From IMG/VR virus record IMGVR_UViG_3300031088_000782, positions 32,001-96,000 of that record: a stretch of 64,000 nt of DNA; one strand, given 5' to 3'. Shown in pieces: positions 6,781-32,274 of the stretch (its first letter is position 1; every line of letters starts with the position of its first letter). Position numbers and translations under genes: made by a program. The DNA is from a virus (Duplodnaviria; Caudoviricetes). Under the pieces are notes generated by a model. That model was not told the DNA's origin and ran no database searches. It saw only the letters and a program-made list of their open reading frames with translations.

Positions 6781-6960
6781 TAAAAGATTAAATAATTGTT
6801 TTTATTAAATATTGTTGTAATTTCTTTTTAGAAAACGATATTAAAGAATAATTATAGAATAAAAAACTATTCTGATATTAAGGGTGTAGTATTTATCATA
6901 AAGCCGGTTTATTAACGAATATTACATCTGATCAGAATACTAAATCTACGGAGTAGGAAA

Positions 6961-7350
6961 ATGGAATTTTTAAACATATTGGCATCATCAAATTTGGTTG
7001 ATATGCACGCAGTGGGCAGTTTTGTTGATATGCACGCAGCAGGTTTGACCGATCTTTGGGGCAAAGTTCTCAAAAACTGGATCACACCACTTTACATTGC
7101 AGCGGTTGCTGTATTTGCTATTATCTTCCTTAAGGATAGGGCATGGATGAAGCTTATTGGATTCGTCGGTATTGCAGCAGTTGTTGGAGTTCTTGTCTTT
7201 GCTGGTTCTGAGATCTTCGGACAAAAGAACAAAGGTTTGACAGGAGTTGCAAAGAAAGCGGCTACTGAGATCAATACAGTGAACGGGCCTTCGCTGGCAA
7301 GCGGTGGGGATAACTCGTTCCTCGGTTCGTCAAGTGCATTCAACAAGTGA
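6961..7350 (+). CDS. TcpD/VirB2-like small membrane protein
   Basis: Two hydrophobic helices separated by FLKDRAW, located between tcpC-like and virB4-like genes; SD ggagtagg upstream. Confidence 0.55.
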   Translation: MEFLNILASSNLVDMHAVGSFVDMHAAGLTDLWGKVLKNWITPLYIAAVAVFAIIFLKDRAWMKLIGFVGIAAVVGVLVFAGSEIFGQKNKGLTGVAKKAATEINTVNGPSLASGGDNSFLGSSSAFNK

Positions 7351-7386
7351 AATTTTAATAATAATTAATTAAAATTAAATAACGCA

Positions 7387-7444
7387 AAATAAAGCAAAAG
7401 AAACAAGGTAAGACACAAAAGACCTTGTTTCTTTTGCTTTATTT
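7387..7444. terminator. Perfect 23-bp inverted repeat, intrinsic terminator
   Basis: aaataaagcaaaagaaacaaggt (7387-7409) / accttgtttcttttgctttattt (7422-7444). Confidence 0.75.
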
Positions 7445-7536
7445 ATTTATATTAAAATTGTTTTTATGGGTGTGCGCTATAAGTTGATATTTAATTTGAG
7501 CAATAGTAGTTTTATTATATTTTTCAAGGAGATACA

Positions 7537-8922
7537 ATGACTGAAAACAAGGAAAAAGAAGTTTCACCAAAGAATAACAGGAAAAGGTTAGACATTGCAC
7601 CAGTAGCAATAATTGATAATCTTGTTTTCAGTAGAACAGAAGTTTTTGCTTATTTTCAAGTAACTAATTCGGTATTCGACTTTCTTTCAAATGATCAAAA
7701 AGTAAATTTGGCACTTCGTATTTCAAACGCTTTTAACAATTTAATGAACGACAAGCAACAACCTGTGGAATGTCACACTATCATCACTTCTGTTCCTTTT
7801 GATGTTGATGCATGGGCTGAACAGGTAAGAGGGGTTTCAGAAGATTGGCCGACTGGACCTGGTTTTGAAAGATACATCAATGAACAGATGTTTTATCTTG
7901 AACAAAAAAGCTTTATGAAAAAAGTGACGTATGTTGGTGTTTCTCTTGGAAAAAGGGGAGCTTTGGATATGTCTAATTTGAATGTCTTTGAGAATGGGGT
8001 CAGAGGAGCTTGGGATGTTGTAAAAGCTTGGGGAAACACAATGCTTCAAGTTCCTACTGCATCAGTATCAAGTAAAGAAGAAGATGATATGCGAAGAAAG
8101 GAAGCAGAACTATTCAGAACACTCTCAAACGGCCATTTACAGGCTTCGAGAGCAACGACTGAGGATTTACTGCTTCTCATCAAAAGACAGCTTTATCCGT
8201 CCATGCCTGCGCCCTATCTTGATGTTGATCACGAGAACAGAGTTGGCCCAGGAGATCTTGATTTAGAATTGGGATCCGCTATCGAAAATAAATATAGATG
8301 GCTTAAAATTACACAAATGTTTGATGATATTGAAATTTCTGGCTACAGAGCAGCTTTGTCTTTTGCTAAATTCCCTAAACATATGGAGTATCCTGGTGCA
8401 GCACCATTTTTGTATTTCCCATCTCAGCTGGGAGCGCCATTCACTTGTTACTCCCGTTTCACACTACATCCTAGTCAAAAGATGAAATTAGAGCTTGAGA
8501 AAAAGAAGAAAGAACAGAAAGACGAACTTGAGAACTTAACAGCAGCTCAGGATCAATACGATTCCGCTGTGGACAGTATGCCTTCGGATATTGTTCAATC
8601 ATTGGAAGATATACGACAAATCGAAAACATGCTTTCGCAGGACAAAACAGCTTGGGTCGAAGGATCTTACCGTATCGTTGTTGAAGCTCCTAGCGAAGAA
8701 AGACTAAGGGAATATTGTTCCAAGTTAAAGCAGTCTTATGATGATTTGGGAATTCTCCTACAATGGACAGCAGGCGATCAAAAGCAGTTACTTTTGGAAC
8801 AAATGCCGGGTGATACTCACAGGGTAAAAGCTTTCCAGCAGATTACCAGCCTTAATATGTTATCTACTTCAGGAATGAATTTTAGTTCTGATGTTGGGGA
8901 TCCGATTTTTAAATCTAATTGA
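7537..8922 (+). CDS. N-terminal half of a VirB4/TcpF/ConE-like protein (no ATPase domain)
   Basis: NLVFSRTEVFAYFQV...FDFLSNDQK matches the ConE/YddE-type N-terminus; ends at NFSSDVGDP with no Walker motifs. Confidence 0.65.
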   Translation: MTENKEKEVSPKNNRKRLDIAPVAIIDNLVFSRTEVFAYFQVTNSVFDFLSNDQKVNLALRISNAFNNLMNDKQQPVECHTIITSVPFDVDAWAEQVRGVSEDWPTGPGFERYINEQMFYLEQKSFMKKVTYVGVSLGKRGALDMSNLNVFENGVRGAWDVVKAWGNTMLQVPTASVSSKEEDDMRRKEAELFRTLSNGHLQASRATTEDLLLLIKRQLYPSMPAPYLDVDHENRVGPGDLDLELGSAIENKYRWLKITQMFDDIEISGYRAALSFAKFPKHMEYPGAAPFLYFPSQLGAPFTCYSRFTLHPSQKMKLELEKKKKEQKDELENLTAAQDQYDSAVDSMPSDIVQSLEDIRQIENMLSQDKTAWVEGSYRIVVEAPSEERLREYCSKLKQSYDDLGILLQWTAGDQKQLLLEQMPGDTHRVKAFQQITSLNMLSTSGMNFSSDVGDPIFKSN

Positions 8923-8984
8923 TGTTTTTAAAAAATCAGATAGAGAAGTATTACGTAATATTGAAAAAGTTTAGGAGAAAGTAA

Positions 8985-9788
8985 ATGGCCCAAAGAAAAG
9001 GACGAAGCGGCGGTGGGTTCAAAGGTTTTTTTGCCAGTGGATTAATCTTAACTCTGTTGGTTTGCGGATTAGTAGCAATTGCAAAAAATAACAATCTTCA
9101 GTCCCCCGCCGATGTTTATGAATACGTAAAAAGTTGGTCTGATAAAGCCTGGAGTTGCGGGGCTGGCGAAGCTGAGTGGGAATGTCGTGGTGGTAAAGGC
9201 AGTCCCGGTGGAGATGGAAGCAAAGAAGGCGATGAGGCAGCTTCTAAAATTAAATCTTCTTCTACTAAAAAAGATGAAGCCTTAGCACAACTTGACAAAA
9301 TTGTTATTCGTGATCGCAAAGAGGTAGCTTACAAGCGTTCAGAATGGAAGCATTGGACAGGAAGCCCTTGTGACACCAGAGAGAAAGTACTCAAATCTCA
9401 AGGGGCAAAAGTGAAAACTGATGATAATTGTAAAGCGGTAAGCGGAACATGGGTGGATCCTTATTCTGGTGACATATTTAAAGATTCATCTAAACTTGAC
9501 ATAGATCATGTTATTCCTCTGTCAGCAGCTGCGCAAAGTGGTGGGCAAGCATGGAATAGCGAGAAAAAAGAAAAATTTGCAAATGACACTTCTCAATTAT
9601 TAGCTGTTTCCGCTGGAGAAAACCGTAAGAAGTCAGACAAGGGGCCGGGAGATTATATGCCACCTAATAAGGATTTCAGATGTGATTATGCAAAACTTTG
9701 GATTGACACTGCTCTCAAATATGAGCTTTCTATTGACAAATCAGATAAAACAGCTTTGACTGCTGCTCTTCGAAAATGCTCCGCGTGA
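8985..9788 (+). CDS. Membrane-anchored HNH nuclease (DUF1524/GmrSD C-terminal-like)
   Basis: N-terminal TM; WVDPYSG, LDIDHVIPLSAAAQSG, FAND..LLAVSAGENRKKSDKGP.DYMP, C.YAKLW motifs. Confidence 0.8.
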   Translation: MAQRKGRSGGGFKGFFASGLILTLLVCGLVAIAKNNNLQSPADVYEYVKSWSDKAWSCGAGEAEWECRGGKGSPGGDGSKEGDEAASKIKSSSTKKDEALAQLDKIVIRDRKEVAYKRSEWKHWTGSPCDTREKVLKSQGAKVKTDDNCKAVSGTWVDPYSGDIFKDSSKLDIDHVIPLSAAAQSGGQAWNSEKKEKFANDTSQLLAVSAGENRKKSDKGPGDYMPPNKDFRCDYAKLWIDTALKYELSIDKSDKTALTAALRKCSA

Positions 9789-9818
9789 GTGAATTAAACT
9801 AAGAAAAGGATTATTATA

Positions 9819-10688
9819 ATGGTTAATACAACAAGCAGCTCACGTTCAAAAAGAATTGCAGAAGAATTCAAACAGAATCAAGAGCAAGCAAAAAATCAAG
9901 ATTATCAAATTGGTGCAGCGCAACTCACTGTTGATGAGAAGTTGAAATTTCTGGAAGAGACTGGTCGGGAAGAAATGATCGATTTGTTCAAAGAATGGAA
10001 GCCTCGCGTATCTAATAGAAAAAAACGCGGTGCCCCTCTTGATCAGCGTGTCTCTATTACAGTAACAAGCCAAGAGCGTGTTTCTTTGGATAGAGAACTA
10101 AAGACTGTCAAAGCATCTGGAGAAAAAATCAGTATGTCTCAATTTATTAGAAACAGAGCTTTGGGGACAGTAGATATCAATGGCTGGAAAGAAATAGCAG
10201 AAAAAGCATTGAACGAAATTGAAGATACTGTAAAGAACCAGTCAGAATTGAGAAAGTCAAAACTTGCCATTGCTGAAATGTTTGACAATGAAGAGGATCC
10301 TGACGAAGCTTCTCTATATGCAAAACAGATTGATGATATCAACCGAAAACTGAATAAACTTGTAGGACAAAATGAAAAAAGAGCTAATCGCCTGTCAGGA
10401 CGTATGAGTATGCCAGAAGCCGAGACTGTTAAATGGCGTGCTCAAAAACTTTGCGTTTCTTCATCGGATTATTTAAGAATGATGATTTTTGCATTGGAGC
10501 CAGATTCTAACGCTGATTCTCATATGAGTTTAGATGCAAAAAGAAGATTTTATTTGTCGATTATGGAGGTCGCTAAAAATGGATGGGGAACACCTCCTAC
10601 TATTTACGAGTGCTCACAATGCCAGAATTATATGGATGAAATCAGAAAACTTCGTCAAGAGAATGAACAATTGAGAAAATTTTCTTAA
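9819..10688 (+). CDS. MobC-like protein with two ribbon-helix-helix motifs
   Basis: RVSITVTSQERVSL...ISMSQFIRNRAL and RLSGRMSMPEAETVKWRAQKLCVSSSDYLRMMIF; C-terminal CSQC plus coiled coil. Confidence 0.6.
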   Translation: MVNTTSSSRSKRIAEEFKQNQEQAKNQDYQIGAAQLTVDEKLKFLEETGREEMIDLFKEWKPRVSNRKKRGAPLDQRVSITVTSQERVSLDRELKTVKASGEKISMSQFIRNRALGTVDINGWKEIAEKALNEIEDTVKNQSELRKSKLAIAEMFDNEEDPDEASLYAKQIDDINRKLNKLVGQNEKRANRLSGRMSMPEAETVKWRAQKLCVSSSDYLRMMIFALEPDSNADSHMSLDAKRRFYLSIMEVAKNGWGTPPTIYECSQCQNYMDEIRKLRQENEQLRKFS

Positions 10689-10753
10689 GATATATAGAAA
10701 AGAGATTACTTGATATTAGTATTAACGATCTTATAAATAGGGAAGTACAGACC

Positions 10754-11329
10754 ATGCTTAAGAAATTAACGAAAAAGCTCAATTCGGACAAAGGCGATTC
10801 TCTTGTGTCTACAATTATCATTTTTCCTTTGATGATTATCATGCTTGTCACAGCAATTGACTTCAGTATATATATGGCTAACCGTGGTCAGATACAAGGC
10901 ATTGCGAGAGACGGGGCACGAACTGTTGCTATCATGGGTGGCAATGGAACAAATAAACAGGGAACGGCAATTGAGGCTAAATACGGTAATGCTAGAAGCG
11001 AATCGTGTGCTGGGTTGGAATCTGAAGCATTCACAAGTAAGTCTACTTCTATAGAATGTAACATTATCAGAAATTTAGAAAATTATAAAGGTTTGGTCAA
11101 TGTTGAGATTAAAGCTGTAAAATGTACTCCACAAAAGGCTAATTTCATTGGACAGCGAGTTTCTTGTGAAATTTCTTGGAAGTATGGCGGAATTCCTGGT
11201 TCTACTATGACTTTGATGAGAAATGCCGCATCGTTCAACTCTGATCCTGCTTTACAGGGATTGAATACGACAGCTGGTTCTTCTGAGTCAGAGGTTAATT
11301 TGAACGGTGTCAGTTTGGTAAATAGGTGA
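10754..11329 (+). CDS. TadE-like pseudopilin
   Basis: KG|DSLVSTIIIFPL hydrophobic helix, AID, ARDGARTVA signature; Cys-containing C-terminal domain. Confidence 0.7.
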   Translation: MLKKLTKKLNSDKGDSLVSTIIIFPLMIIMLVTAIDFSIYMANRGQIQGIARDGARTVAIMGGNGTNKQGTAIEAKYGNARSESCAGLESEAFTSKSTSIECNIIRNLENYKGLVNVEIKAVKCTPQKANFIGQRVSCEISWKYGGIPGSTMTLMRNAASFNSDPALQGLNTTAGSSESEVNLNGVSLVNR

Positions 11330-11940
11330 TGATGAAATTGTTAAATTATTTTATTAGCAAAAACAAAAGTGATCGCGGCGATACGCTTGTCATGTTTATA
11401 GTAAGTATTCCTTTCATTATGATCCTTATGGGTTTTTCCGTAAATATTAATCAACAGATAAACAGCGGAATTGAAAACAAAGCAATGGCTCAAACCTCTG
11501 TTGAAACAGCGGTAAAAAGAGTTGACTCACAAGGTAGTTTAAATACTGCTTCTGTGCAAAGCTTTGTTAATGAGTATCGAATCCAAACGGGTGATTCTTC
11601 AATAAAAAGCGGAAGCACGAGCGAATCTCAAGCATATAGGTCACCTGTATGCAGTAAAGCTGAAGTTGATGGAGTTGAAAGAGAGATGCCTTACATGATT
11701 GTCAAGTTAGGGTCTGAACGCGGAGTTGAAAAAACTCAATCTTCTACTTGGGTGATTGAAGGCTTGAACAATGATGAAGTAGAACAGAGAGATTTGGGCA
11801 ACACTCGTTATCGTGTTATCTCTGCAACAGTATATAACACAACAACAAGTTTGTGGGGTGCAGTTGGATTGTCTGATTGCCAGATGCACAAATCGGAAGT
11901 TTCAGCTATTGCCTTCGGAAGCAATGCTGACTTGAATTAA
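11326..11940 (+). CDS. TadE/TadG-like pseudopilin
   Basis: RG|DTLVMFIVSIPFIMILMGFSVN prepilin-like N-terminus; overlaps the preceding pilin-like gene by 4 nt. Confidence 0.55.
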   Translation: MMMKLLNYFISKNKSDRGDTLVMFIVSIPFIMILMGFSVNINQQINSGIENKAMAQTSVETAVKRVDSQGSLNTASVQSFVNEYRIQTGDSSIKSGSTSESQAYRSPVCSKAEVDGVEREMPYMIVKLGSERGVEKTQSSTWVIEGLNNDEVEQRDLGNTRYRVISATVYNTTTSLWGAVGLSDCQMHKSEVSAIAFGSNADLN

Positions 11941-11949
11941 TATTTTTTA

Positions 11950-11986
11950 AAAAAAGAAGTTTACATCACTTCTTTTTTGATAGAAT
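11950..11986 (+). promoter_or_regulatory. Short hairpin followed by an extended -10 (TG-A-TAGAAT) upstream of phoH2
   Basis: aaaaaagaagt / acttctttttt inverted repeat; TAGAAT at 11981-11986 preceded by TGA. Confidence 0.45.
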
Positions 11987-12153
11987 GATTTCAAATTGAA
12001 TATAGTAAGTTTTAATTATTATTAGTTTTCAACATGAAAGGAGATGGCTGTCAAAGGTTATCTCTTTTTGTGTTTTGAATTAGAAAAGGTATATAAGAAC
12101 GCTATTCCGAAAAGCGGTTTAGCTGTACCGAGTAATAGATAGGATAACTAAAA

Positions 12154-13581
12154 ATGGTGAATGATTCCAGAAATATAACAGTCCCACTATCGGAATCTCT
12201 CAAAGGTAAGTATGTTGTTGCTGATACATCCTCACTTTTGATGGCTGGAACAGGAATGTTGAGCATTATGAAGGGATGCTTTTTGATTATTCCAGCAATT
12301 GTTGTTCAGGAACTTGAAGATAAAAGAGCGCATTCAACTATAGGATTTCTTGCAAGAGAATGGTTGAGGTTACTGGAGGACAATCGAGTAAAACACGGTT
12401 TGGAGTTATCCAAAGGAATTGATCTTGAAGATCATGGATTATCTATTCAAGTTGAACCGAACCATTCTAATCAAGGGTCTCTCCCTGTTCATCTTCAAAA
12501 TGGAACGCATGACAGCACTGTTCTTGCTGTAGCGAACAACCTTTTGCAAGAAGGTAAAGAGGTCGTTCTTTTGTCCAACGATATGCCTATGCGACTTCAT
12601 GCCACTTTGGACTTAAAGATCGATGCTTATGAATTCAATGCAACACAGATTATTGGAGCGAAAGATTTCGATGGTCGATACAAAGTTTCTCTTACTGATG
12701 AAGAATATGCTGAAATTTGCGAAAGTGGAACTCGACATAACCAAGATCTTCACGAAGCTGTAATGAAAAAGTTGCCGAAAAACCACTCTAAGAATGCTTT
12801 TATCGAAGTTGTTCTTGAAGGAAATAGCGTTTTGTTTGAAATGATTTTGACAGACGAAAGGCTATCTGAAGTTGGACATAAAGGTAAGGCTTTCGGTATC
12901 ACTGCAAGAACTCGTGAACAAGACGTTGCTCTGGAGTACTTAAAGAAGTCAGCTAAAGATCTTCCTATTGTTTCTATCGGTGGTGGAGCCGGAACAGGAA
13001 AGACTCTTCTGACTATTGCGAATGGGCTTGAACAGTTGAAAGCTGGAGCTTACCAAAAAGTTATTGTATTCCGTTCTCTTCATGAGATGGGTGCAGGACA
13101 GGAAATGGGATTCTTACCAGGTGGTGTTGATGAAAAGATGAATGCTTGGGCTGGAGCAATTTATGATGCTCTTGATGTTTTAGCGGCAAAGAAAAAACCA
13201 TTGAAAAAGAATTCTGGCGTTCATGGACAGGTAGCTCAGAAAGAAGAAGCTGAAAAGCTTCGTGACATGATTGAAATTTCTCCAATTACCTATCTACGTG
13301 GTCGTTCTTTGGCAAACACTTACATGGTTTTGGAAGAAGCTCAAAACTTCTCTCGTTCTGAGATTCTGAATATTCTTTCTCGCGCTGGAGAGGGGTCAAA
13401 GATTATTCTTACTTTCGATGCCGCTCAGGTAGATAACAGATTCTTGCAGGCAGGTAAGAATGCTGATATTTGGTCAGTGATTGAAACCCTTAAAGACGAA
13501 AATCTTTTTGCCCATATTACACTGAAAAAGACTGAACGATCACAAGTTGCTGAACTAGCTTCTCGTATTCTTGAAAAATAA
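12154..13581 (+). CDS. phoH2: PhoH2-type PIN ribonuclease plus PhoH ATPase fusion
   Basis: PIN YVVADTSSLL...VVQELE...DSTVL...LLSNDMPMR; Walker A GGAGTGKT; MGFLPG; YLRGRSL; LEEAQN; LSRAGEGSK; D..QVDN. Confidence 0.9.
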   Translation: MVNDSRNITVPLSESLKGKYVVADTSSLLMAGTGMLSIMKGCFLIIPAIVVQELEDKRAHSTIGFLAREWLRLLEDNRVKHGLELSKGIDLEDHGLSIQVEPNHSNQGSLPVHLQNGTHDSTVLAVANNLLQEGKEVVLLSNDMPMRLHATLDLKIDAYEFNATQIIGAKDFDGRYKVSLTDEEYAEICESGTRHNQDLHEAVMKKLPKNHSKNAFIEVVLEGNSVLFEMILTDERLSEVGHKGKAFGITARTREQDVALEYLKKSAKDLPIVSIGGGAGTGKTLLTIANGLEQLKAGAYQKVIVFRSLHEMGAGQEMGFLPGGVDEKMNAWAGAIYDALDVLAAKKKPLKKNSGVHGQVAQKEEAEKLRDMIEISPITYLRGRSLANTYMVLEEAQNFSRSEILNILSRAGEGSKIILTFDAAQVDNRFLQAGKNADIWSVIETLKDENLFAHITLKKTERSQVAELASRILEK

Positions 13582-13610
13582 TTTTTGAATAAAGTCAAGT
13601 AGTTCATTTT

Positions 13611-13654
13611 CGGGCTGCAGTTGATATTCTTCATAGGATATCAACTGCAGCCCG
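13611..13654. terminator. 20-bp GC-rich hairpin terminator after phoH2
   Basis: cgggctgcagttgatattct / aggatatcaactgcagcccg with a 4-nt loop, followed by cagtttttt. Confidence 0.8.
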
Positions 13655-13715
13655 CAGTTTTTTAGAAAAGCTTGTGCAAGAGTTTTAATAGTCATATATG
13701 ATTGTGGAGTTATGA

Positions 13716-16700
13716 TTGATGAGTAAAAGACTTGATTCTTCTTATATAGAGAATGAGAATAAAATAAATGCCGCTATGGTGAATAACCGAAAGGCTCCTT
13801 TTGCTGTCGCAATTTCAGCATCTCTTGCTTTTGCTGTACTTATGATGATGTTCCAACCATTCTTAATGACTTTATTCAAAAATGATTCTACAACACAAAA
13901 CAACAGTATAGTAACAACTAACTCTACTCTTGCTGAAGCCGGTGAACCAGGATGGTTCTGCAGTGATAAATTCGGCGGAGGAATGAATTCTAAATCAACT
14001 TGGGAAGGCCCATTAGACATTAAAGTATATCCTGAAAAGGGAAGCCGAGAGGTCACTATTCAAGAAGCTTTAGGTGCTGGTTTAGCATTTGTCACTTATG
14101 ACGGCGAAGGCGAAGCCAAAGATCGCATGTTTGTTAAGGGAAAAGAAAAACCAAAACCTGGTGATAAAGTTTTCGGCAGCAGTGAAGCTAAATTTGACAA
14201 ACTCTTTGAAAAGAATAAATCAAAATTAGAAAAGGAAAGAACTCTTGGTAAATGTTTGGGCGGAGTCTTTGTTCCTAACATAGCAAATGCTGTTATGTGG
14301 GTTTCAAGTAGTGTGACAAAAATTGCTCAGTTTACAGCTGTTATGGTATTCAACGGTAATTTGATCTGCGAAAAACCAGGTAAGGGTGGAGCGTGTTTGG
14401 ATCTTATCGGAATTATTGGTGGTAAAGGTTCAAGTGACGGAGGAATTATTGGTGTTCTTACATCAAGCATCTACTACCCTCTGTTGATTATAGCTGTAGC
14501 GATCACAGGTTTGTGGGTCTTGAAGAGAGGTCTTGTTGACAGGAAGCTTCGAGAATCCTTATTTGGCGCATTATGGATGTGCTTGTCGGTGATTATAGGT
14601 CTTGCATTGTTGTTGAATCCACTTCTTATCACTAAAGCTCCAATGGCTGTTTCAAATGTCGTTTCAACATGTGTTATTGGGGCTTTTAATGGTAAAAACT
14701 GTTTTGACTCAAGCGGTGGAAATTCTGTCAAATATGAAGATGGAGATTCAACTTCTGAAAAAGTTTGCCGAAGCAGTTCAGATCAGGCAAGTATTAATGA
14801 ACAAATGACATTCACTACTTCATCTATTACTTGTAGTATTTGGCGAGCATTCATTCTTGAGCCATATGCACAGGGTTCTTTTGGAACTTCATTCAATGAT
14901 CTTGATGTCAAAGCTAATCCACAATTGAATAAATTGATTAAAGATCAGGGGCTTGATCCTAACATTTTCTGTGTTAATCTTGCAACTACAAAATCTTTGG
15001 ATTCTATGAATGGTAAATACATTCAATTGAATAGTACCAAAAACAAGGTATGCAACCTTGCAGCTTACCAAATGTATTTGAAGACACAAGCAACAACAAG
15101 TGGCGATAAGAACGTCTCTGATGTGGATTACAAATGGTACAGAGTTATCATGGTAGCAGCTGCTGATGAGGGATTGTGGGCTAACTGGACTAACACAGCA
15201 GGATCTGCATTCAATAAAATGACAGTTTCAAGCATTTCTCTGTTTGCATCAGGATTGGGAACATTTATTATTTTCATTACATCAATTTTTGCTCTTGTTT
15301 ATTACATTTCCTCAATCCTACTTATGGCTTTTGCTCCAGTATTCTTCTTAATGGGTGTTCATCCCGGTAGAGGAAAGAGGATTCTTTTGGGATGGCTTGA
15401 AAAAGTTATTTCAAATGTTCTGAAATATATGGCTTCTGCGGTGTTCCTTATTGTTACTATCTCGATTTATGGTGGAATTCTGTCATCTATCAGCAATATT
15501 GGATTAACTTTGATTTTCATTATCATCGTTACTATGGCTTTGTTTATGTATCGCTCTGAACTTATTGATTTAATAGGAAGGGCAAATATGGGAGGAGAGA
15601 AGATTTCTAGCTCTCTTTCTGAGAAGCTTGGTAACTCCACTAAGGGTGCCTTGAAGTTTGCTGGTTCAACTGCGGTTGCTGGAGCTGGTGGTGTTGCTGG
15701 CGCAGCTTTGACAAGCGATGGAATGAAGGTTAGCAATCCATTCAAGAAGGGTGGGTTCGAAGAACTTAGGAAAAACAGCAGTGAGCTTCGAAAAGACATG
15801 TCTGCTGGCTTTAAAGATGGTATTAAACGTGAAACTAAGCGTAATCCAGGATTCATTGGAAATGTTGCTCGACAATATGACCGTAACACTGTTGACAACA
15901 AGCAAGACTTGAGAAGCAAGAGGGATCGTGCTGCTGAAGCTGAAGAAGCTGCGGAGAAAGCATATAATGAGAAACGTGATGATTACCAAGAAGTCTTGGA
16001 CAGACAATCCAAGTTCAATTTTGACTCTAATGCGGATAAAGCAGATTTGAAATCTCTTGAAGACAGCCATGAGAACATTAAGAATGTAGAGAATAAAACC
16101 CTTAATGATTTCAGGGGCAAGGCTGACAGAAATTATGCTCAAGAAAAACAAAGAATTGACAGATCTGATATGCTTGATGAAGACAGAATAAAACATCTTA
16201 ACAATATTGCTATCCAAAGAGATGAAAGCCATAATTTTGCTCAACTTCAAGAATTAGTCAACGCTATGCGAGACAATAAGATTCAACTTGACGTAGCAGT
16301 TCGAACAGGTAATGTTGATGAGCAGAATAGACTTAAATCTGAAATTAATTCTCAACAAAGTCAAGCAGGTGAGCTTCGTTCAAAGATTTCTGAAAGAAAT
16401 TACAACCGATTCACAAGAGAATATGGTAATGCCATGAACACTCAAAGAGACATTGGTGCTATTGACACTCTTGATGATGATATGAAGAACGATTTGGCAA
16501 CAAAGAGAGCAGCAGCTTTAACTTACGAAGATAGACGCAATGAAATTGCTCAACAGCTTAACTACGCAGAAAATGAGTTGTCTGAAGCTGAGGCAAGACT
16601 TGACAAAGAGAGTCTAGCTAGCAAGCTATATGATGAAAAGTATATTGGTCATCGTCCAGGTGAGGGATTGAACGACAAGAAAGTCAACAAGATTGAAAAA

Positions 16701-17360
16701 GAGCTGAAGCAACATCAGAATGTCTATAATGACAGAAGGGATAGAGAAATTGCTGCGAATCAAGAAAAGTATGAGAAAACTGTGAATGGAGAAAATGAAT
16801 CACAATCATCTAATTCTTCATCTGGTTCATCAAGAGGGTCGAACAATGAAAACTATTTTGATAAAAATGATGTTGATTTAGTCGAAAAACAGGATATTCG
16901 TCAAATTGTGACTCCACCTAAACCTAGTTCTTCTCCGACAAACCATTTGCCAGATAAGCCTAGCTCTGCTCCAACTAATCATATTCCAAATAAGCCGACT
17001 AAAGCACCAACTAATCATTTGCCACCTAAACCTACTAAGGAACCGGACGCACATAAAATTCCACCTAAGCCTACTAACTTACCTTCTGCTCCAAGAGGGC
17101 AAGATGCAGATAACGTTAGAAGGGCTGAAGCCAGAATTAATAAGGATGACAGTTTTTCAAGAAAAGACAGCAGTAAATCCAACTTTGAAAACAAATTGTC
17201 AAACAAAGAAAACGACAAAGGCAGCGGTAAAGGCGGAAATGGAAACAGGGGAAGCAATTCGTTAGCAGATATTGCCAAACGAAGAGAAGAGATTAGAAAT
17301 AAAAATAACCCCAGTTCCCGACCTGATGACAATGGTAGCGGAAACGGGAATAAGTTCTGA
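13716..17360 (+). CDS. Giant VirB6/TcpH-like polytopic membrane protein, paralog 1 (1214 aa)
   Basis: Multiple TM clusters; SIWRAFILEPYAQGSFG; MAFAPVFFLMGVHPGRG; long coiled-coil cytoplasmic tail. Confidence 0.65.
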   Translation: MMSKRLDSSYIENENKINAAMVNNRKAPFAVAISASLAFAVLMMMFQPFLMTLFKNDSTTQNNSIVTTNSTLAEAGEPGWFCSDKFGGGMNSKSTWEGPLDIKVYPEKGSREVTIQEALGAGLAFVTYDGEGEAKDRMFVKGKEKPKPGDKVFGSSEAKFDKLFEKNKSKLEKERTLGKCLGGVFVPNIANAVMWVSSSVTKIAQFTAVMVFNGNLICEKPGKGGACLDLIGIIGGKGSSDGGIIGVLTSSIYYPLLIIAVAITGLWVLKRGLVDRKLRESLFGALWMCLSVIIGLALLLNPLLITKAPMAVSNVVSTCVIGAFNGKNCFDSSGGNSVKYEDGDSTSEKVCRSSSDQASINEQMTFTTSSITCSIWRAFILEPYAQGSFGTSFNDLDVKANPQLNKLIKDQGLDPNIFCVNLATTKSLDSMNGKYIQLNSTKNKVCNLAAYQMYLKTQATTSGDKNVSDVDYKWYRVIMVAAADEGLWANWTNTAGSAFNKMTVSSISLFASGLGTFIIFITSIFALVYYISSILLMAFAPVFFLMGVHPGRGKRILLGWLEKVISNVLKYMASAVFLIVTISIYGGILSSISNIGLTLIFIIIVTMALFMYRSELIDLIGRANMGGEKISSSLSEKLGNSTKGALKFAGSTAVAGAGGVAGAALTSDGMKVSNPFKKGGFEELRKNSSELRKDMSAGFKDGIKRETKRNPGFIGNVARQYDRNTVDNKQDLRSKRDRAAEAEEAAEKAYNEKRDDYQEVLDRQSKFNFDSNADKADLKSLEDSHENIKNVENKTLNDFRGKADRNYAQEKQRIDRSDMLDEDRIKHLNNIAIQRDESHNFAQLQELVNAMRDNKIQLDVAVRTGNVDEQNRLKSEINSQQSQAGELRSKISERNYNRFTREYGNAMNTQRDIGAIDTLDDDMKNDLATKRAAALTYEDRRNEIAQQLNYAENELSEAEARLDKESLASKLYDEKYIGHRPGEGLNDKKVNKIEKELKQHQNVYNDRRDREIAANQEKYEKTVNGENESQSSNSSSGSSRGSNNENYFDKNDVDLVEKQDIRQIVTPPKPSSSPTNHLPDKPSSAPTNHIPNKPTKAPTNHLPPKPTKEPDAHKIPPKPTNLPSAPRGQDADNVRRAEARINKDDSFSRKDSSKSNFENKLSNKENDKGSGKGGNGNRGSNSLADIAKRREEIRNKNNPSSRPDDNGSGNGNKF
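16920..17090 (+). repeat. In-frame tandem repeat of about 36 bp encoding KP(S/T)xxPTNH(L/I)Px
   Basis: KPSSSPTNHLPD KPSSAPTNHIPN KPTKAPTNHLPP KPTKEPDAHKIPP KPTNLP. Confidence 0.8.
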
Positions 17361-17414
17361 AAGATGATTGAATTTTGAAAAATATTATTAAGATTAAACA
17401 ATCATCTTTCAGAA
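17355..17414. terminator. Perfect 16-bp inverted repeat with a 28-nt spacer
   Basis: ttctgaaagatgattg (17355-17370) / caatcatctttcagaa (17399-17414). Confidence 0.6.
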
Positions 17415-17433
17415 CACAAAACAAGGAGTAAAA

Positions 17434-19128
17434 ATGGCGGAAGAAAAGCCTACTGGACAGGGTCAAGGGAACGAATCATCTAAAAATAATGATAACACTA
17501 ATAAGCAACCCCAAAGTGGCTCTCCTTCTGCTAAAAACAACAATCCAAATGGCACAAATGGCTCTGAGGGCAACATAAAGGCACCAAGAAACGCTTTTGA
17601 TGTAGCTAAACAAGCAACATCAGATCCGGCAGACGAAAAAGGCTCAGAGGGGCAAAAAGGGAAAACTGACATATCTAAAAATATGAAAACAACAGCAGAC
17701 ATTGCTAAAGATCCTAAAAAGGGATTAACAAATGCTGTTAAAGATAAAGGTATGGAAGTTGCTAAAAAAGCGGGCCAAGGAGCAGCTCCCGAAAGCGTTC
17801 AAAAGGGTATGGAAGTCGCTCAAAAAGCTACAGACATTGCCATGAAAGCGAAAAGCGCTTTTCTTGCAACAAAAGGTGGTATTGCTATTTTCGCCGCAAC
17901 AGTAGCGGATCCTATTTTCTGGATTATCGTTCTTGTCATTCTTGTTATTATTATTTTGATTATTGGCATTGTAGGAACTGTTCAAGTTGTCGGCAGAACC
18001 GAAAATGGTGATGGCTGTGGCGTGGCTGGAGATAGTGGTGATGGAGTTGAAGCAAAAGATACGGGAAATTGGCTTGAAAACGCAAGTTCAGCCGCTAATT
18101 GGATGATGTCTACGAAGTTCAAATTCTTAGGCGACAAACCTATGACTTTGAATCAAGCTGCTGGCATTATTGGTAACTGGTCACAAGAATCTCGTGTCAG
18201 TCCAAAAATTGTGCAAGGTGGATCTGGGTTGTCTACCGATATGTCAAACGAAGCTCTTATGGGAGTCAGCGGCGGCGGAAAAGCTGTTGGACTGGCACAA
18301 TGGGATGGAGGACGTAGAACAAATTTGGCAAAGTTTGCGAAAAGTCAGGGAAAACACTGGACTGAAATGACTGTTCAACTTGAATTCTTCAAAACTGAAC
18401 TTGAAGGATACGAAGGTTCAAGTCTTGTTGCCGGAGGATTTAATGACCCATCCAAATCAGCTAAAGATTTAGTGCTGATTTTCGAAGAGAAGTTTGAGCG
18501 TGCTGGAAAACCTGCTATGGAAAATCGTTATAAGGGAGCTGAAGATTTCTTGGCTAACTTCAAAGGTGGAGGAAATTACAGCGAAGACACAGGAGGAAGT
18601 TGCCTTACCGCTGGTGAAGGAGATGTTGATACTTCAGATTTGGTAAACCTTGCTATTTCACTCTCCTATCCGACATCTGCAGAATCAAAAGTTGGACCTG
18701 GTGATTCTTATGGACAAAAGAAAGCAAAACCTGAATATAAGTCTGCAAAAGCCGAAGCCGAAAAGGTTGGCGGTAAAGACGGTATGGCTCTTTATGCATC
18801 ATGCGACCGTTTTGTTGCTACTGTGATAAAGCTAACTACAGATAAAGACATTCCTTGGGGATCAACAGCAGAACAAGGAACTTATCTGAAAAATAGCCCT
18901 AAATGGAAGCAATACACAAAGAAATCAGATGCTAAACCTGGCGATATTTGGATTACAAAAACACGAGGACACGTTATTCTTTATTTAGGAAACGTTAAAG
19001 GTAGAGATACCATTGCTCACGCTTCTTATCTTTCTCGTGTGGCTGCTTTGGGTGATGCTAATTATCTTTCAGCTAATCTTGTTGATACTGGTGGTAGAGC
19101 ATATTACGGATATACTTTTGTAGGATAA
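17434..19128 (+). CDS. VirB1/TcpG-like peptidoglycan hydrolase: phage-tail-lysozyme domain plus NlpC/P60-CHAP-like domain
   Basis: TM anchor; AAGIIGNWSQES...GLAQWDGGR..L (phage tail lysozyme type); ASCDRFV and PGDI...GHVILYLG (Cys-His peptidase). Confidence 0.8.
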   Translation: MAEEKPTGQGQGNESSKNNDNTNKQPQSGSPSAKNNNPNGTNGSEGNIKAPRNAFDVAKQATSDPADEKGSEGQKGKTDISKNMKTTADIAKDPKKGLTNAVKDKGMEVAKKAGQGAAPESVQKGMEVAQKATDIAMKAKSAFLATKGGIAIFAATVADPIFWIIVLVILVIIILIIGIVGTVQVVGRTENGDGCGVAGDSGDGVEAKDTGNWLENASSAANWMMSTKFKFLGDKPMTLNQAAGIIGNWSQESRVSPKIVQGGSGLSTDMSNEALMGVSGGGKAVGLAQWDGGRRTNLAKFAKSQGKHWTEMTVQLEFFKTELEGYEGSSLVAGGFNDPSKSAKDLVLIFEEKFERAGKPAMENRYKGAEDFLANFKGGGNYSEDTGGSCLTAGEGDVDTSDLVNLAISLSYPTSAESKVGPGDSYGQKKAKPEYKSAKAEAEKVGGKDGMALYASCDRFVATVIKLTTDKDIPWGSTAEQGTYLKNSPKWKQYTKKSDAKPGDIWITKTRGHVILYLGNVKGRDTIAHASYLSRVAALGDANYLSANLVDTGGRAYYGYTFVG

Positions 19129-29460: not shown

Positions 29461-32274
29461 ATGTACAATATTTCTGAGTGGCCTGAATGGAATGCATGTC
29501 TCAATATTCTTTTGGATCCAGAGGTTTCCGAAATAGCAAGCAATGGGCCTAACAGTTTCTTCGTTGTGAAAAACGGAAAAAGAATAAAGTTAGACATTAA
29601 AGTTGCTTCCGAAGAGAAATATGCTGAAGGTGTTGAAAAAGGGCTTGTTCCCAAAGTAAAGACAACCAGGGACTTTGACATCAATGGTTATCTATTTGAA
29701 GGTAGGCTCACTTACAGCGCAGGTGGTACTGAAGTCATCGCTCGTTGTCACATTGGACTTTCTCCTTCAACTGTTACTCCACAAGTTTCCATTGCGAAAA
29801 AGAGTGCATCTTTACGTAATCTTGATTCAATTGCTTCACAAGGATCAATGAGTACAGAGATGATGAACTTTTTGAAAATGACTGTGGATGCGGGGTTGAC
29901 AACAGTGCTTTCAGGTGGAACCGGAGCCGGGAAAGAGGTACATAAAAATACTCTTATTCCAACCCCTTCAGGAATGCGAAAAGTTGATGATTTGAACATT
30001 GGTGATACAATTTTTGATGAAGTTGGTAAAAAAACCAAAATTGTTAACAAATATTCACCAAAAGATCCTAAACATTACAGATTGACATTCAATGATGGAA
30101 CAACTGTTGATGCGGGTATGGGGCATTTGTGGAAAGTATATGCACTGAACGAAAAAGTGAATTTCGGCCATAAATCTCATCCTATTCTTGATGAATCTCA
30201 AGTTGCTAATTTAAACAATATTCTTAATGAAGAAGAAGAATTTATTACTTTTTCTGAACTTAGAGAAAAAATTGGTGGAAATATCGACAAAACTGGATCT
30301 ATAAGAGAAACAGTCAAAGGTTTTGGCACAAAAGCAATTGATTTTTTTAATTTTGAGAAAGATTCAGTTGTTGAAAAAATCAAAAAATCAACAATCAATG
30401 AAAAAGATAAGAATGAAATCCTGAAAAGATTTAATACTGTTCAAGAGTCTTCTTTGTCTTTGAGAAAAGTGAAAGAACTTGTTGATAGCAGATATTTCGT
30501 TTCTAAGATTCTCCCCACTGAGCACAAAATTTCACAAGAAACAGTGTTTGTAAAGAAAGAAGTTGCTACACATCTTTTGAAAGATGACGAATTAAGAAAA
30601 GAAGCAAGAAAAAATCTTGACAAATCTTATCAAAGTGCTACTCGCCCTGTGAAAGTGATGACCACTCAAGAATTGGTTGATTATGGAGTAGTTAATAAAA
30701 AAGGGCGTTTAAATTTTGCTGTTGAAAGCTTACAGAATCCTGTTGAATACGATAAGCAAGATCTTCCTATTGATCCTTATACTCTAGGTGCCTGGTTAGG
30801 TGATGGATATTCAGCAACCGGAAGTATTTGCGGAATAGATAAAGAAGTTATTGAAAAAATTTATGAAAATGGGTTTAACTACAAAGAAAGACAGGATTTT
30901 AACGAAAGACAGAATATTCCTCTGAGTATTTGGACAGTTGAGGGTTTGAGTAAACTTCTCAGAGAAAACAATTTGAAGAACAATAAGCACATTCCAGAAA
31001 TTTACAAATATTCTTCTGTTAAACAAAGAATTCAATTACTTTCAGGATTGCTTGACACCGATGGGACTTTGGATTATCGTCGTGGAACAGTTCATGTTGG
31101 AATGACTGTTGAAAGCATTGTTAAAAACATGAGAGAAATAGTTTGCTCTCTCGGATGGCACGCTACTCCTGTTATTTCTCGTGAGAGAAGCTACAAAGCT
31201 GCTGACGGAACTAAAGTTGAGTGCAAGGATAGTTACGGCTTCAGTTTTGTTCCTGATGTTCAATTGTTTAATATTTCAAGAAAAGCGAAACTTCTGCATG
31301 AAAGATTAGGTAGAGATATTTCTCAGCAAGACAGACGAAACAGGCACTATATCAAAGATATTCAGTTGATTGAAGACGCTAAGGCCGAGGACTATTACTG
31401 CTTTGAAGTAGATTCAGCAACTCATATGTTCTTGTGCTCTGAGTCTTTCATTCCTACTCATAACACTACTATGCTTGAAGCCATGACTAAATTGTTCCCG
31501 AATGATTATAGAATTGCTGTTGCCGAGGATATTCCTGAACTTGTTCTTGTCCAGCCTAACGTCACTTATTGGGAGGCTGTTCCGTTTGTTCCTGGTATGG
31601 ATCCGAATGAAGTTGCCACTTTGCAGTGGGTTGTGAAGCAGTTCCAGCGTAATAGAAATGACAGAATCATCATTGGTGAGACTCGTGGCGCTGAGTTTTC
31701 TGAATTCTTAGTCGCTGCTAACTCTGGTAAAAACGGTTCTTTGACAACAATCCACGCTGATGATCCTGTATCATGCTTGAGAAAGATGACAAATTTTGCT
31801 ATTCAAGGTTTCGGAGGATTGAACATTCGTTCTGTTAACACTGAATTATCTACTGCTGTAAATATTATTGTACAGTTGAATAGGTTCCCTGACACTGGAA
31901 GGCACCGTGTGACTCAAATTCAAGAAGTTACACAAACTTTGAGTAATCAGGAGAATGCTCAAATTTCTACTCAACCTTTGTATTCTTATGATCCGTTGAG
32001 TGACACTTTCCAGAAAGAAGAAAATATGACTGATGGGCTTCGCAATCTTTGTGCTCAGAGGGGCGTTGACATTAGCGAATTCCTGAAGTCAAGATTGCAT
32101 GAGCCTACCCCTGGTCATAATAGCTCTGGAGGCGCTGGTGGGCGAAATAACCCGACTTCAGGCAATAGGACATTAGGTAGTCCATTATCTGATTCTGGAG
32201 CGTCTGAGGGGGCTTCTAAGCGCAGGAGACTTCCTACTGCAAATCCTTTCAGTAAAGGTGGTAGAAACATATGA
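29461..32274 (+). CDS. tadA: TadA/CpaF/VirB11-family secretion ATPase interrupted by an intein
   Basis: After removing the intein: SGGTGAGK|TTMLEAM, IAVAEDIPEL, DRIIIGETRGAE, GSLTTIHADD. Confidence 0.85.
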   Translation: MYNISEWPEWNACLNILLDPEVSEIASNGPNSFFVVKNGKRIKLDIKVASEEKYAEGVEKGLVPKVKTTRDFDINGYLFEGRLTYSAGGTEVIARCHIGLSPSTVTPQVSIAKKSASLRNLDSIASQGSMSTEMMNFLKMTVDAGLTTVLSGGTGAGKEVHKNTLIPTPSGMRKVDDLNIGDTIFDEVGKKTKIVNKYSPKDPKHYRLTFNDGTTVDAGMGHLWKVYALNEKVNFGHKSHPILDESQVANLNNILNEEEEFITFSELREKIGGNIDKTGSIRETVKGFGTKAIDFFNFEKDSVVEKIKKSTINEKDKNEILKRFNTVQESSLSLRKVKELVDSRYFVSKILPTEHKISQETVFVKKEVATHLLKDDELRKEARKNLDKSYQSATRPVKVMTTQELVDYGVVNKKGRLNFAVESLQNPVEYDKQDLPIDPYTLGAWLGDGYSATGSICGIDKEVIEKIYENGFNYKERQDFNERQNIPLSIWTVEGLSKLLRENNLKNNKHIPEIYKYSSVKQRIQLLSGLLDTDGTLDYRRGTVHVGMTVESIVKNMREIVCSLGWHATPVISRERSYKAADGTKVECKDSYGFSFVPDVQLFNISRKAKLLHERLGRDISQQDRRNRHYIKDIQLIEDAKAEDYYCFEVDSATHMFLCSESFIPTHNTTMLEAMTKLFPNDYRIAVAEDIPELVLVQPNVTYWEAVPFVPGMDPNEVATLQWVVKQFQRNRNDRIIIGETRGAEFSEFLVAANSGKNGSLTTIHADDPVSCLRKMTNFAIQGFGGLNIRSVNTELSTAVNIIVQLNRFPDTGRHRVTQIQEVTQTLSNQENAQISTQPLYSYDPLSDTFQKEENMTDGLRNLCAQRGVDISEFLKSRLHEPTPGHNSSGGAGGRNNPTSGNRTLGSPLSDSGASEGASKRRRLPTANPFSKGGRNI
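29935..31464 (+). mobile_element. 510-aa class 3 intein with LAGLIDADG homing endonuclease in the tadA P-loop
   Basis: Block A EVHKNTLIPTPSG; block B GHLW (W at 30130); LGAWLGDG and LLSGLLDTDG endonuclease motifs; block F YYCFEVDS (C at 31399); block G IPTHN followed by T+1. Confidence 0.9.

What the first reader, a model, noticed from the sequence alone, without database searches (positions are those of the whole stretch)
29935..31464. Class 3 intein starting with Glu in a Tad/VirB11 secretion ATPase
Seen: the intein begins E-V-H-K-N-T-L-I-P-T-P-S-G, with no N-terminal Cys/Ser nucleophile. It has the complete W (block B, GHLW), C (block F, YYCFEV), T (block G, PTHN) triplet, two LAGLIDADG motifs, and an extra insert of roughly 170 aa between block B and the endonuclease. 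Known: the WCT triplet defines class 3 inteins, which splice through the block F Cys and are reported mainly from actinobacteria and their phages, typically in helicases or terminases. Inference: Glu1 and a pilus-ATPase host look unusual, and splicing may gate pilus assembly.
Basis: partly seen in the sequence, partly recalled or inferred. Interest (0 to 1): 0.75.

Follow-up and report, generated by a model that had tools for sequence, protein, structure and literature searches.

The report
Class 3 intein in secretion ATPase
A self-splicing, mobile protein insert (a class 3 intein with its own homing endonuclease) sits in the ATP-binding loop of a pilus/secretion motor gene of a giant uncultured mobile element; it is real and exactly bounded, but it belongs to a large, already described intein family, and its first residue, Glu, is one of many that this position tolerates.

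Summary
Window 29935-31464 (+) encodes a 510-aa intein in a 937-aa TadA/VirB11-like ATPase gene (29461-32274). It is inserted between Lys and Thr of Walker A (GAGK|E...THN|TT). A natural intein-less allele, 99% identical in the exteins, fixes both boundaries to the residue.

All class 3 marks are present: no N-terminal nucleophile (Glu1), His64/Trp66 in block B, Cys489 at F:4, Thr508-His509-Asn510, and Thr+1. There are two LAGLIDADG motifs. The best sequence matches among solved structures are class 3 DnaB inteins.

The "unusual" reading is only partly supported.
- About 30 orthologous ATPases carry an intein at the same site, with residue 1 = A, D, S, Q, N, E, M or L.
- In 204 related class 3 inteins, Glu1 occurs 5 times and Asp1 13 times.
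- GK|T is the classic P-loop insertion site.
- A cultured actinobacterium's plasmid Tad ATPase already carries a class 3 intein at this site.
- Inteins in archaeal VirB11/CpaF are catalogued.

The roughly 170-aa insert is real, helical, poorly conserved and has no recognisable fold. Nothing supports splicing as a gate for pilus assembly.

Verdict: a new member of a known kind, of low to moderate interest.

The parts
29461..32274 (+). Host gene: a TadA/VirB11-like (PilT/VirB11 superfamily, Pfam T2SSE) ATPase precursor of 937 aa; the spliced product would be 427 aa.
   Evidence: ORF. T2SSE scores 8.5e-20 on the precursor and 3.1e-26 over residues 13-310 of the intein-less allele. NCBIfam best hits are the TadA-type conjugal-transfer ATPase (1.7e-38) and VirB11 (1e-35), both below the curated cut-offs.
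29461..29934 (+). N-extein, residues 1-158, ending in Walker A GGTGAGK.
   Evidence: 157/158 identical to intein-less P0258.
29935..31464 (+). Class 3 intein, 510 aa, from Glu1 to Asn510.
   Evidence: GC is 34.1% (GC3 25%) against 41-43% (GC3 34%) in the exteins.
29935..30141 (+). N-terminal Hint half, residues 1-69: block A (EVHKNTLIPTPSG) and block B (GMGHLWKV, nt 30115-30138) with His64 (30124-30126) and Trp66 (30130-30132).
   Evidence: Aligned to the class 3 MchDnaB1 (6RIX) and MsmDnaBi1 (6BS8) inteins. H64 is invariant and W66 at least 90% conserved in 29 relatives. pLDDT is 94-96.
30142..30648 (+). Extra helical insert, residues about 70-238, lying between block B and the next Hint strand.
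   Evidence: Length varies from 99 to 185 aa among relatives, and mean column identity is 27%. AF2 pLDDT is 86.5 for the segment alone. No Pfam hit. No convincing fold match in PDB, AFDB clusters or the ESM Atlas.
30649..31389 (+). Returning Hint strand (VKVMTTQEL, nt 30649-30675) plus the LAGLIDADG homing endonuclease. Motif 1 is at nt 30784-30813 (D290) and motif 2 at nt 31036-31068 (D376).
   Evidence: Weak Pfam hits to LAGLIDADG_3 and Hom_end. Foldseek gives PI-SceI at 3e-14 and I-DmoI at about 1e-4. Motifs located.
31390..31464 (+). C-terminal Hint half: block F (DYYCFEVDSATHMFL) with Cys489 (nt 31399-31401), and block G (SFIPTHN) with Thr508-His509-Asn510 (nt 31456-31464).
   Evidence: C489 and N510 are invariant; T508 and H509 are at least 90% conserved. 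Aligned to VRCVEVD...VPTHN of 6RIX.
31465..32274 (+). C-extein, residues 669-937, starting with Thr+1 (TTMLEAM) and carrying the Asp box, Walker B (IIIGETRG) and His box (TTIHA).
   Evidence: 267/269 identical to P0258. These motif residues are invariant in 28 intein-less orthologues.

Best explanation
This is a splicing-competent class 3 intein carrying a LAGLIDADG homing endonuclease. It behaves as a selfish mobile element, parked at the classic P-loop site (GxxGxGK|T) of a TadA/VirB11-like motor ATPase of a 309-kb uncultured mobile element.

Inferred mechanism, by homology to tested class 3 inteins:
1. Cys489 (F:4), helped by His64 and Trp66, attacks the Lys158-Glu1 peptide bond and forms the block F branched thioester.
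2. Thr+1 takes over the N-extein.
3. Asn510 cyclises with help from His509.
4. An O-N shift restores GAGKTT, giving an active 427-aa ATPase and a free 510-aa endonuclease that can cut intein-less alleles.

Glu1 has no catalytic role. It is one of at least 13 residue types seen at an almost unconstrained position. The 170-aa helical insert is an accessory module of one intein sub-lineage. Its function is not shown; an aid to DNA targeting or a spacer are the likeliest roles.
For: Boundaries: the intein-less allele P0258 is 99% identical in the exteins and sits in a syntenic contig that is 94% identical at the DNA level.

Class 3 marks and purifying selection on them: in 29 relatives at 25-75% identity, H64, C489 and N510 are invariant and W66, T508 and H509 are at least 90% conserved. 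In 204 relatives, G:5 is Thr in 203, +1 is T, S or C, and -1 is Lys in 166.

Closest solved sequences: the class 3 MchDnaB1 (6RIX/6RIY) and MsmDnaBi1 (6BS8) inteins. Structurally they superpose at 1.4-1.5 A over 69 columns.

Fold: the AF2 model has pLDDT 89.9 and its top matches are PI-SceI at 3e-14 and I-DmoI.

Mobility: both LAGLIDADG acidic residues are intact. Distribution is sporadic, with about 30 intein-bearing clusters against hundreds of intein-less orthologues, including ones at 99%, 81% and 79% identity. Intein GC3 is 25% against 34% in the exteins. In the intein tree, inteins from coupling-protein (TraG/VirD4-like) hosts nest among those from T2SSE hosts.

Residue 1 is free.

Literature: the class 3 mechanism and its P-loop preference (PMC2807308, PMC5222942); GK|T as the classic site (PMC5050341); 1701 class 3 inteins, 82.5% with LAGLIDADG motifs, regarded as constitutively splicing selfish elements (PMC7891396).
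Against: No experiment or proteomic datum shows splicing of this precursor. Tori 2010 found that substitutions at Pro1 of the MP-Be DnaB intein lowered splicing, so residue 1 can tune efficiency and Glu1 may not be fully neutral. Endonuclease activity is inferred from motifs only. No co-conversion tract is visible around the site when the filled and empty alleles are compared. The census of residue 1 is drawn from relatives of this intein and is therefore biased.
Confidence: 0.85

Rival explanations
1. Regulatory, conditional intein. Splicing through the exposed catalytic Cys489 responds to redox state or metal ions and so gates activation of the secretion/pilus ATPase. Because other motors of the element (a second Tad ATPase and DnaB) are also interrupted by class 3 inteins, this could act as a common switch.
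For: The insertion in Walker A must inactivate the precursor (inference). The same genome carries class 3 inteins at the P-loops of a second T2SSE ATPase and of DnaB. The abstract of Kelley 2018 (PMC6195587, listed) describes a mycobacterial DnaB intein as an oxidative-stress sensor. A second Cys (FLC) follows block F in about half of the family.
Against: A 99%-identical allele works without the intein. Distribution among orthologues is sporadic. An intact homing endonuclease and a P-loop preference are what a selfish element at a conserved site would show (PMC5050341, PMC7891396). Nothing in the sequence is specific to regulation.
Confidence: 0.1
2. Dead intein. The insert no longer splices, so this ATPase copy is a disrupted gene whose function is covered by the two other T2SSE ATPases of the element.
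For: Three T2SSE-family genes exist in the 309-kb record, so redundancy is possible. Non-splicing class 3-like inteins are on record (Arth_1007, PMC3196547, from its abstract).
Against: The 937-codon frame is intact. Every catalytic residue is present and conserved in relatives. The exteins remain 99% identical in protein to the intein-less allele, while the DNA of the two exteins has diverged by 2-4% and that of the flanks by about 6%, which indicates purifying selection on the host protein.
Confidence: 0.04
3. The intein splices by another route, not by the class 3 pathway: either class 2-like direct attack by Thr+1, or attack by another nucleophile.
For: No biochemical test was done here. 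Glu1 excludes only the class 1 route.
Against: The WCT triplet is complete and aligned with inteins shown to need Cys F:4 (PMC2807308, PMC5222942). Those papers report the class 2 route only for KlbA-type Ala1 inteins with Cys+1. In the IcmO intein, Cys+1 could not replace Cys F:4.
Confidence: 0.02

Closest known systems
[quoted passage not shown]
   Same: WCT triplet, no N-terminal nucleophile, Thr/Ser +1, THN ending, P-loop insertion. They are the best PDB sequence matches and superpose at 1.4-1.5 A.
   Different: The host is a secretion ATPase, not a helicase. Residue 1 is Glu rather than Pro or Ala. This intein also carries a 170-aa helical insert in addition to the endonuclease, whereas the solved ones are mini-inteins.
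Class 3 intein in the Tad-operon ATPase WP_217924774.1 of Miltoncostaea oceani, on an 815-kb plasmid (RefSeq, annotated only as 'ATPase, T2SS/T4P/T4SS family')
   Same: Same host family and the same GAGK|x...THN|T site. WCT is present (EHLW, MVCISID, VTHN), and so are the LAGLIDADG motifs. Its neighbours are a T2SSF gene and a prepilin peptidase gene.
   Different: Residue 1 is Ala. It has no long insert: the host protein is 773 aa. The host is a cultured actinobacterium. Overall identity is only about 27%.
Bvi IcmO intein (Burkholderia vietnamiensis G4, plasmid-borne; PMC5222942)
   Same: A class 3 intein, shown experimentally to splice by the class 3 route, in the plasmid-borne IcmO protein. 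I know IcmO as a type IV secretion coupling ATPase; the paper itself calls its function not yet established.
   Different: It is a mini-intein of 142 aa with Cys+1, in a coupling-protein-type host rather than a VirB11/TadA-type host.
TerL1-a P-loop inteins of mycobacteriophages (Kelley 2016, PMC5050341), and the terminase inteins of other phages found here
   Same: Insertion between the invariant Lys and the Thr of Walker A. The paper calls the site classic and reports that mycobacteriophage inteins include class 3. The terminase inteins found here are the same type; for example Klebsiella phage fENko-Kae01 shows MGK|ALSNDT...EDHLW...CRCLQV...PTHN|TT.
   Different: The host is the terminase large subunit, and there is no long insert.
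PI-SceI (VMA1 intein; PDB 1VDE, 1LWS)
   Same: Best whole-model fold match (E 3e-14, TM 0.53-0.65): a Hint domain plus a LAGLIDADG domain. From my own knowledge, PI-SceI also has an extra DNA-recognition region built into its Hint domain.
   Different: PI-SceI is a class 1 intein (Cys1). The insert here did not match it or anything else when searched alone.

Membership tests
Class 3 intein | No Cys/Ser/Thr nucleophile at intein residue 1 | tested here: met
   Residue 1 is Glu. The boundary is fixed by the intein-less allele P0258.
Class 3 intein | Trp at block B position 12, two residues after the block B His | tested here: met
   H64-L-W66 aligns to the HQW of 6RIX. W66 is conserved in at least 90% of 29 relatives.
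Class 3 intein | Cys at block F position 4 | tested here: met
   C489 in YYCFEVD aligns to VRCVEVD of 6RIX. It is invariant in 29 relatives.
Class 3 intein | Thr at block G position 5, C-terminal His-Asn, and Ser/Thr (rarely Cys) at +1 | tested here: met
   T508-H509-N510, then Thr+1. In 204 relatives G:5 is Thr in 203.
Class 3 intein | Splicing depends on the block F Cys and passes through a block F branched thioester | not testable with these tools
   This needs the C489A mutant and detection of the branched intermediate in a model precursor.
Class 3 intein | Hint fold | tested here: met
   AF2 pLDDT is 94-96 over the Hint parts. Foldseek matches 6riy and 6bs8 at rmsd 1.4-1.5 A over 69 columns.
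LAGLIDADG homing endonuclease (intein-borne, two-motif type) | Two LAGLIDADG motifs, each with its catalytic acidic residue, in the alpha-beta-beta-alpha-beta-beta-alpha fold | tested here: met
   Motifs at residues 284-293 (D290) and 368-378 (D376). Fold matches to PI-SceI and I-DmoI. Pfam LAGLIDADG_3 and Hom_end score below their cut-offs.
LAGLIDADG homing endonuclease (intein-borne, two-motif type) | Cleaves the intein-less allele | not testable with these tools
   The only support is indirect: presence/absence polymorphism between elements that are about 94% identical at the DNA level.
PilT/VirB11-like secretion ATPase (Pfam T2SSE, PF00437) | Match over the Pfam gathering score, with Walker A, Asp box, Walker B and His box | tested here: met
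   The intein-less form scores 92.4 bits against a cut-off of 24.9. The motif residues are invariant in 28 orthologues.
CpaF/TadA (Tad pilus ATPase) as opposed to VirB11 (T4SS ATPase) | Equivalog-level model match, or an operon with tadB/tadC | tested here: inconclusive
   TIGR03819 (TadA, conjugal-transfer-associated) scores 132.7 bits against a cut-off of 373, and VirB11 scores 123 against 250. This copy lies among T4SS genes and one TadE-like gene rather than next to T2SSF genes. The T2SSF genes flank the other intein-bearing paralogue.

The most novel reading that the evidence does not exclude
The roughly 170-aa helical insert is shared by a sub-lineage of class 3 inteins in both VirB11/TadA-like and TraG/VirD4-like ATPases and has no recognisable fold. 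It could be a new functional module, for example a DNA-targeting or partner-binding domain. Together with the redox- and metal-sensitive block F Cys, it could make splicing conditional, so that this giant element switches on its intein-interrupted motors (two Tad/VirB11 ATPases, DnaB, and a split FtsK) in a coordinated way.
Probability: 0.08. Interest if true: 0.6.

Novelty: new member of a known kind. Interest (0 to 1): 0.3.

Why it matters
The direct value is for annotation and as a resource.
- It is a cleanly bounded class 3 intein with a natural empty-site allele, which makes it a ready-made pair for splicing and homing assays.
- It shows that the first residue of class 3 inteins is almost free, with acidic residues in about 9% of this sample. 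That is useful for intein engineering, where the junction residue matters.
- It adds TadA/VirB11-like ATPases of giant uncultured conjugation-type elements to the hosts of class 3 inteins. This shows the class is not confined to actinobacteria, their phages, helicases and terminases.
- The wider pattern may be more interesting than this single intein: several P-loop motors of one 309-kb element are interrupted by class 3 inteins, and a sub-lineage carries an insert domain of unknown fold.

Tried and rejected
- Megablast of 10 kb around the gene against GenBank phages found no match.
- A scan of reference prokaryote genomes with P0258 found no relative. With an alignment of orthologues it found only relatives at 34% identity or less, so the host organism could not be named.
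- The insert alone had no Pfam family. Foldseek against PDB gave a best E of 0.2 (FAN1). VIA-align against 48,161 chains gave a best Z of 5.1 (coiled coils). AFDB clusters gave a best E of 0.18, with faint SAP and winged-helix rows. The ESM Atlas gave TM of 0.37 or less. None of these is a usable match, and this does not show that the fold is new.
- I looked for a co-conversion tract or raised divergence next to the insertion site, comparing filled and empty alleles, and saw no clear pattern.
- I considered that the two Glu1 inteins of the genome might be recent copies of each other. This is rejected: they lie in different, well-supported clades, and the nearest relatives of each have Q/S or A/M at residue 1.
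- I considered that the element is a jumbo phage, as my first notes assumed. The Terminase_6N and HK97-capsid Pfam models find nothing in the 309-kb record, while T4CP, TcpC, VirB6-like, VirB4-like, TadE and T2SSF genes are present. Only two virion models were tried, so a phage nature is not excluded.
- The supplementary tables of Tori 2010 that list first residues are not held, and the J Bacteriol 2011 class 3 paper is not held.
Full report
**What is there.** Window 29461-32274 (+) is a single open frame of 937 codons. Its ends match Pfam T2SSE, the PilT/VirB11 secretion-ATPase family. The middle 510 residues (window 29935-31464) give weak Hint, LAGLIDADG_3 and Hom_end hits. The protein reads ...SGGTGAGK | EVHKNTLIPTPSG ... 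GMGHLWKV ... LGAWLGDGYS ... LLSGLLDTDGT ... DYYCFEVDSATHMFL...SFIPTHN | TTMLEAM....

**Boundaries.** A database search with the C-extein returned P0258. This is a 427-aa protein from another metagenome assembly, 157/158 identical to residues 1-158 and 267/269 identical to residues 669-937. It reads GGTGAGK-TTMLEAM with nothing in between.
- Its contig (L018) has the same gene order for 10 kb on each side and is about 94% identical at the DNA level.
- The empty site is ...GCCGGGAAG|ACTACTATG...; the filled site has AAA|GAG... and ...CATAAC|ACTACTATG.
- No other pair of cut points gives the empty-site protein.
- The intein is therefore exactly Glu159 to Asn668 of the precursor, the -1 residue is the Walker A Lys, and +1 is the Walker A Thr.

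**Class.** By sequence, the best solved relatives are class 3 inteins: MchDnaB1 (6RIX/6RIY) and Msm DnaBi1 (6BS8).
- Their HQW aligns to H64-L-W66.
- Their VRCVEVD...VPTHN aligns to YYCFEVD...IPTHN.
- So Trp is at B:12, Cys at F:4 and Thr at G:5, the WCT triplet that defines the class (Tori 2010, PMC2807308; PMC5222942).
- In an alignment of 29 relatives at 25-75% identity, H64, C489 and N510 are invariant. W66, T508 and H509 are at least 90% conserved.
- An AlphaFold2 model built on that alignment has mean pLDDT 89.9.
- Foldseek ranks PI-SceI first (3e-14), then other intein endonucleases and I-DmoI. It superposes the Hint part on 6riy and 6bs8 at 1.4-1.5 A.
- Both LAGLIDADG motifs keep their acidic residue, D290 and D376.

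Every sequence-level criterion for a class 3 intein with a LAGLIDADG endonuclease is met. The chemistry itself, namely dependence on Cys489 and the block F branched intermediate, cannot be tested here.

**Is Glu1 unusual?** Not much.
- About 30 cluster representatives of the same ATPase family carry an intein at the same GK|T site. The inteins are 232-522 aa long. Residue 1 is A (12), D (8), S (3), Q (2), N (2), E, M and L (1 each), while positions 2-13 are well conserved.
- The nearest relative (P0003, 75% intein identity) has Gln. The next (P0004) has Ser.
- In a wider set of 204 class 3 inteins taken from two searches, residue 1 is A 112, P 13, L 13, D 13, S 10, Q 8, M 8, N 7, G 6, E 5, R 4, C 4, H 1. 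The -1 residue is Lys in 166, and G:5 is Thr in 203.
- The other Glu1 cases sit in a TraG/VirD4-like coupling protein (P0126), an FtsK-like protein (P0139) and two further proteins.
- The sample is biased towards relatives of the query. It still shows that an acidic first residue is a minority state of a nearly free position, as expected when residue 1 is not the nucleophile.
- Tori 2010 did see lower splicing when Pro1 of MP-Be DnaB was replaced, so residue 1 may tune efficiency.

**Is the host unusual?** Only mildly.
- Tori 2010 already noted that most class 3 inteins sit in ATPase P-loops, and listed one in the IcmO protein of a Burkholderia plasmid.
- Kelley 2016 (PMC5050341) calls the Lys|Thr position the classic P-loop intein site.
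- Novikova 2016 (PMC4760082, Table 3) lists 21 VirB11 and 5 CpaF inteins in archaea.
- PMC7891396 counted 1701 class 3 inteins in nr, 82.5% with LAGLIDADG motifs.
- In the plasmid collection, the Tad-operon ATPase of Miltoncostaea oceani (a cultured actinobacterium, 815-kb plasmid) carries a class 3 intein at the same site: GAGK|AQSLDS...EHLW...MVCISID...VTHN|TS. It lies next to T2SSF and prepilin peptidase genes and is annotated only as an ATPase.
- Relatives of this intein also sit in terminases of Stenotrophomonas, Salmonella, Bacteroides, Microcystis, Clavibacter and Klebsiella phages.

**The insert.** Residues about 70-238 lie between block B and the next Hint strand (VKVMTTQEL).
- The segment is real, lysine- and glutamate-rich, and near neutral (pI 8.7). 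It is the most AT-rich part of the gene, at 30% GC.
- Its length varies from 99 to 185 aa among relatives, and mean column identity is 27%.
- It is shared by inteins in T2SSE hosts and in coupling-protein hosts.
- Modelled alone it is confident (pLDDT 86.5). It is built of about four strand-plus-helix units followed by a long helix.
- It matches nothing convincingly in Pfam, PDB, AFDB clusters or the ESM Atlas.
- By position it recalls the extra DNA-recognition region of PI-SceI. That comparison is from my own knowledge, not a test. Its role is open.

**Mobility.**
- The intein is sporadic among orthologues. Orthologues at 99%, 81% and 79% identity lack it, and one whose whole precursor is 76% identical has it.
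- Its GC3 is 25% against 34% in the exteins.
- In a maximum-likelihood tree of the inteins, those from coupling-protein hosts fall beside and within those from T2SSE hosts. This fits jumps between P-loop genes that share GxGK|T/S.
- I saw no co-conversion signature next to the site.

**Context.** The window is part of a 309,534-bp record that IMG/VR classes as a provirus. The same protein is also on record on a 681,645-bp contig.
- My first assumption of a jumbo phage does not fit well.
- The window encodes a TraG/VirD4-like coupling protein (2346-4781), TcpC (4843-6780), a TadE-like protein (10754-11329), PIN-PhoH (12154-13581), a TrbL/VirB6-like protein (13716-17360) and a lysozyme (17434-19128) upstream of the ATPase. 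Sigma-70-like, SbcC and HU genes lie around it.
- The rest of the record holds a VirB4-like ATPase, two T2SSF genes and two more T2SSE ATPases.
- The Terminase_6N and HK97-capsid models find nothing.
- It looks like a giant conjugation-type element. Earlier notes of this scan reached the same view.
- NCBIfam places the spliced ATPase nearest the TadA-type conjugal-transfer ATPase and VirB11, both below cut-off. "Tad/VirB11-like" is therefore fair, but the exact system it serves is unresolved.

**Other inteins in the same genome.**
- A second T2SSE ATPase (genome 239793-243002), flanked by the two T2SSF genes, carries a 462-aa class 3 intein at the same Walker A site. It also starts with Glu: SGK|EMVAET...NHNW...MVCITV...TTHN|TS (genome 240933-242318).
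- DnaB carries a 273-aa class 3 intein starting with Ala (genome 105618-106436).
- The two Glu1 inteins belong to different, well-supported clades, so the shared Glu is independent.

**Does splicing gate pilus assembly?** The precursor must be inactive, because Walker A is split. Nothing beyond that points to regulation. The near-identical intein-less allele, the sporadic distribution and the intact endonuclease are what a selfish element at a conserved site looks like. Conditional splicing of a class 3 DnaB intein is reported in mycobacteria (PMC6195587, from its abstract), so the idea stays testable. I give it about 10%.

**Verdict.** This is a new member of a known kind.

Noticed in passing
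genome G000:C1:239793-243002, intein at 240933-242318 (outside the window): A second TadA/CpaF-like ATPase (1070-codon frame), flanked by two T2SSF (TadB/C-like) genes, carries a 462-aa class 3 intein at the same Walker A site. It also begins with Glu. Its intein belongs to a different clade from the one studied here.
   Followed up: partly
genome G000:C1:104919-107222, intein at 105618-106436 (outside the window): DnaB helicase with a 273-aa class 3 intein (Ala1; DHRW, VRCIQV, PTHN|T) in its P-loop.
   Followed up: partly
window 63761-64000, running on to genome 96393: A 211-codon frame starts like an intein N-half (block A-like start, GNHLW) but has no C-terminal half. Earlier notes of this scan read it as a piece of a three-piece split class 3 intein of an FtsK-like ATPase. 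I did not test that.
   Followed up: no
window 2346-19128: A co-oriented block of conjugation-type genes: TraG/VirD4-like coupling protein (2346-4781), TcpC (4843-6780), GmrSD_C/HNH nuclease (8985-9788), weak NikA-like (9819-10688), TadE-like (10754-11329), PIN-PhoH (12154-13581), TrbL/VirB6-like (13716-17360) and a lysozyme (17434-19128). Terminase_6N and HK97-capsid models find nothing in the whole 309-kb record, so its virus/provirus label is doubtful.
   Followed up: partly
P0018 (metagenomic orthologue, intein residues 165-630): One orthologous intein has Phe instead of the block B Trp (DHNF) and Asp instead of the block G Thr (ITDHN), while keeping the block F Cys. This is a rare F-C-D variant of the WCT triplet.
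   Followed up: no
window 56972-59239: A 755-aa protein with five copies of the DUF4379 treble-clef zinc-finger domain (E 4.9e-83).
   Followed up: no
L007 (Microcystis phage MaAM05, MW495066.1, 18648-29106): The nearest homologue of the ATPase exteins in an isolated phage record (35% identity) lies next to genes annotated as a secretin and CheB. That is an odd gene set for a phage genome.
   Followed up: no
genome G000:C1:253925-254401 (-): A third T2SSE-family ATPase (578-codon frame, best Pfam score of the three, no intein) lies on the opposite strand, near the Tad/VirB4 cluster.
   Followed up: no
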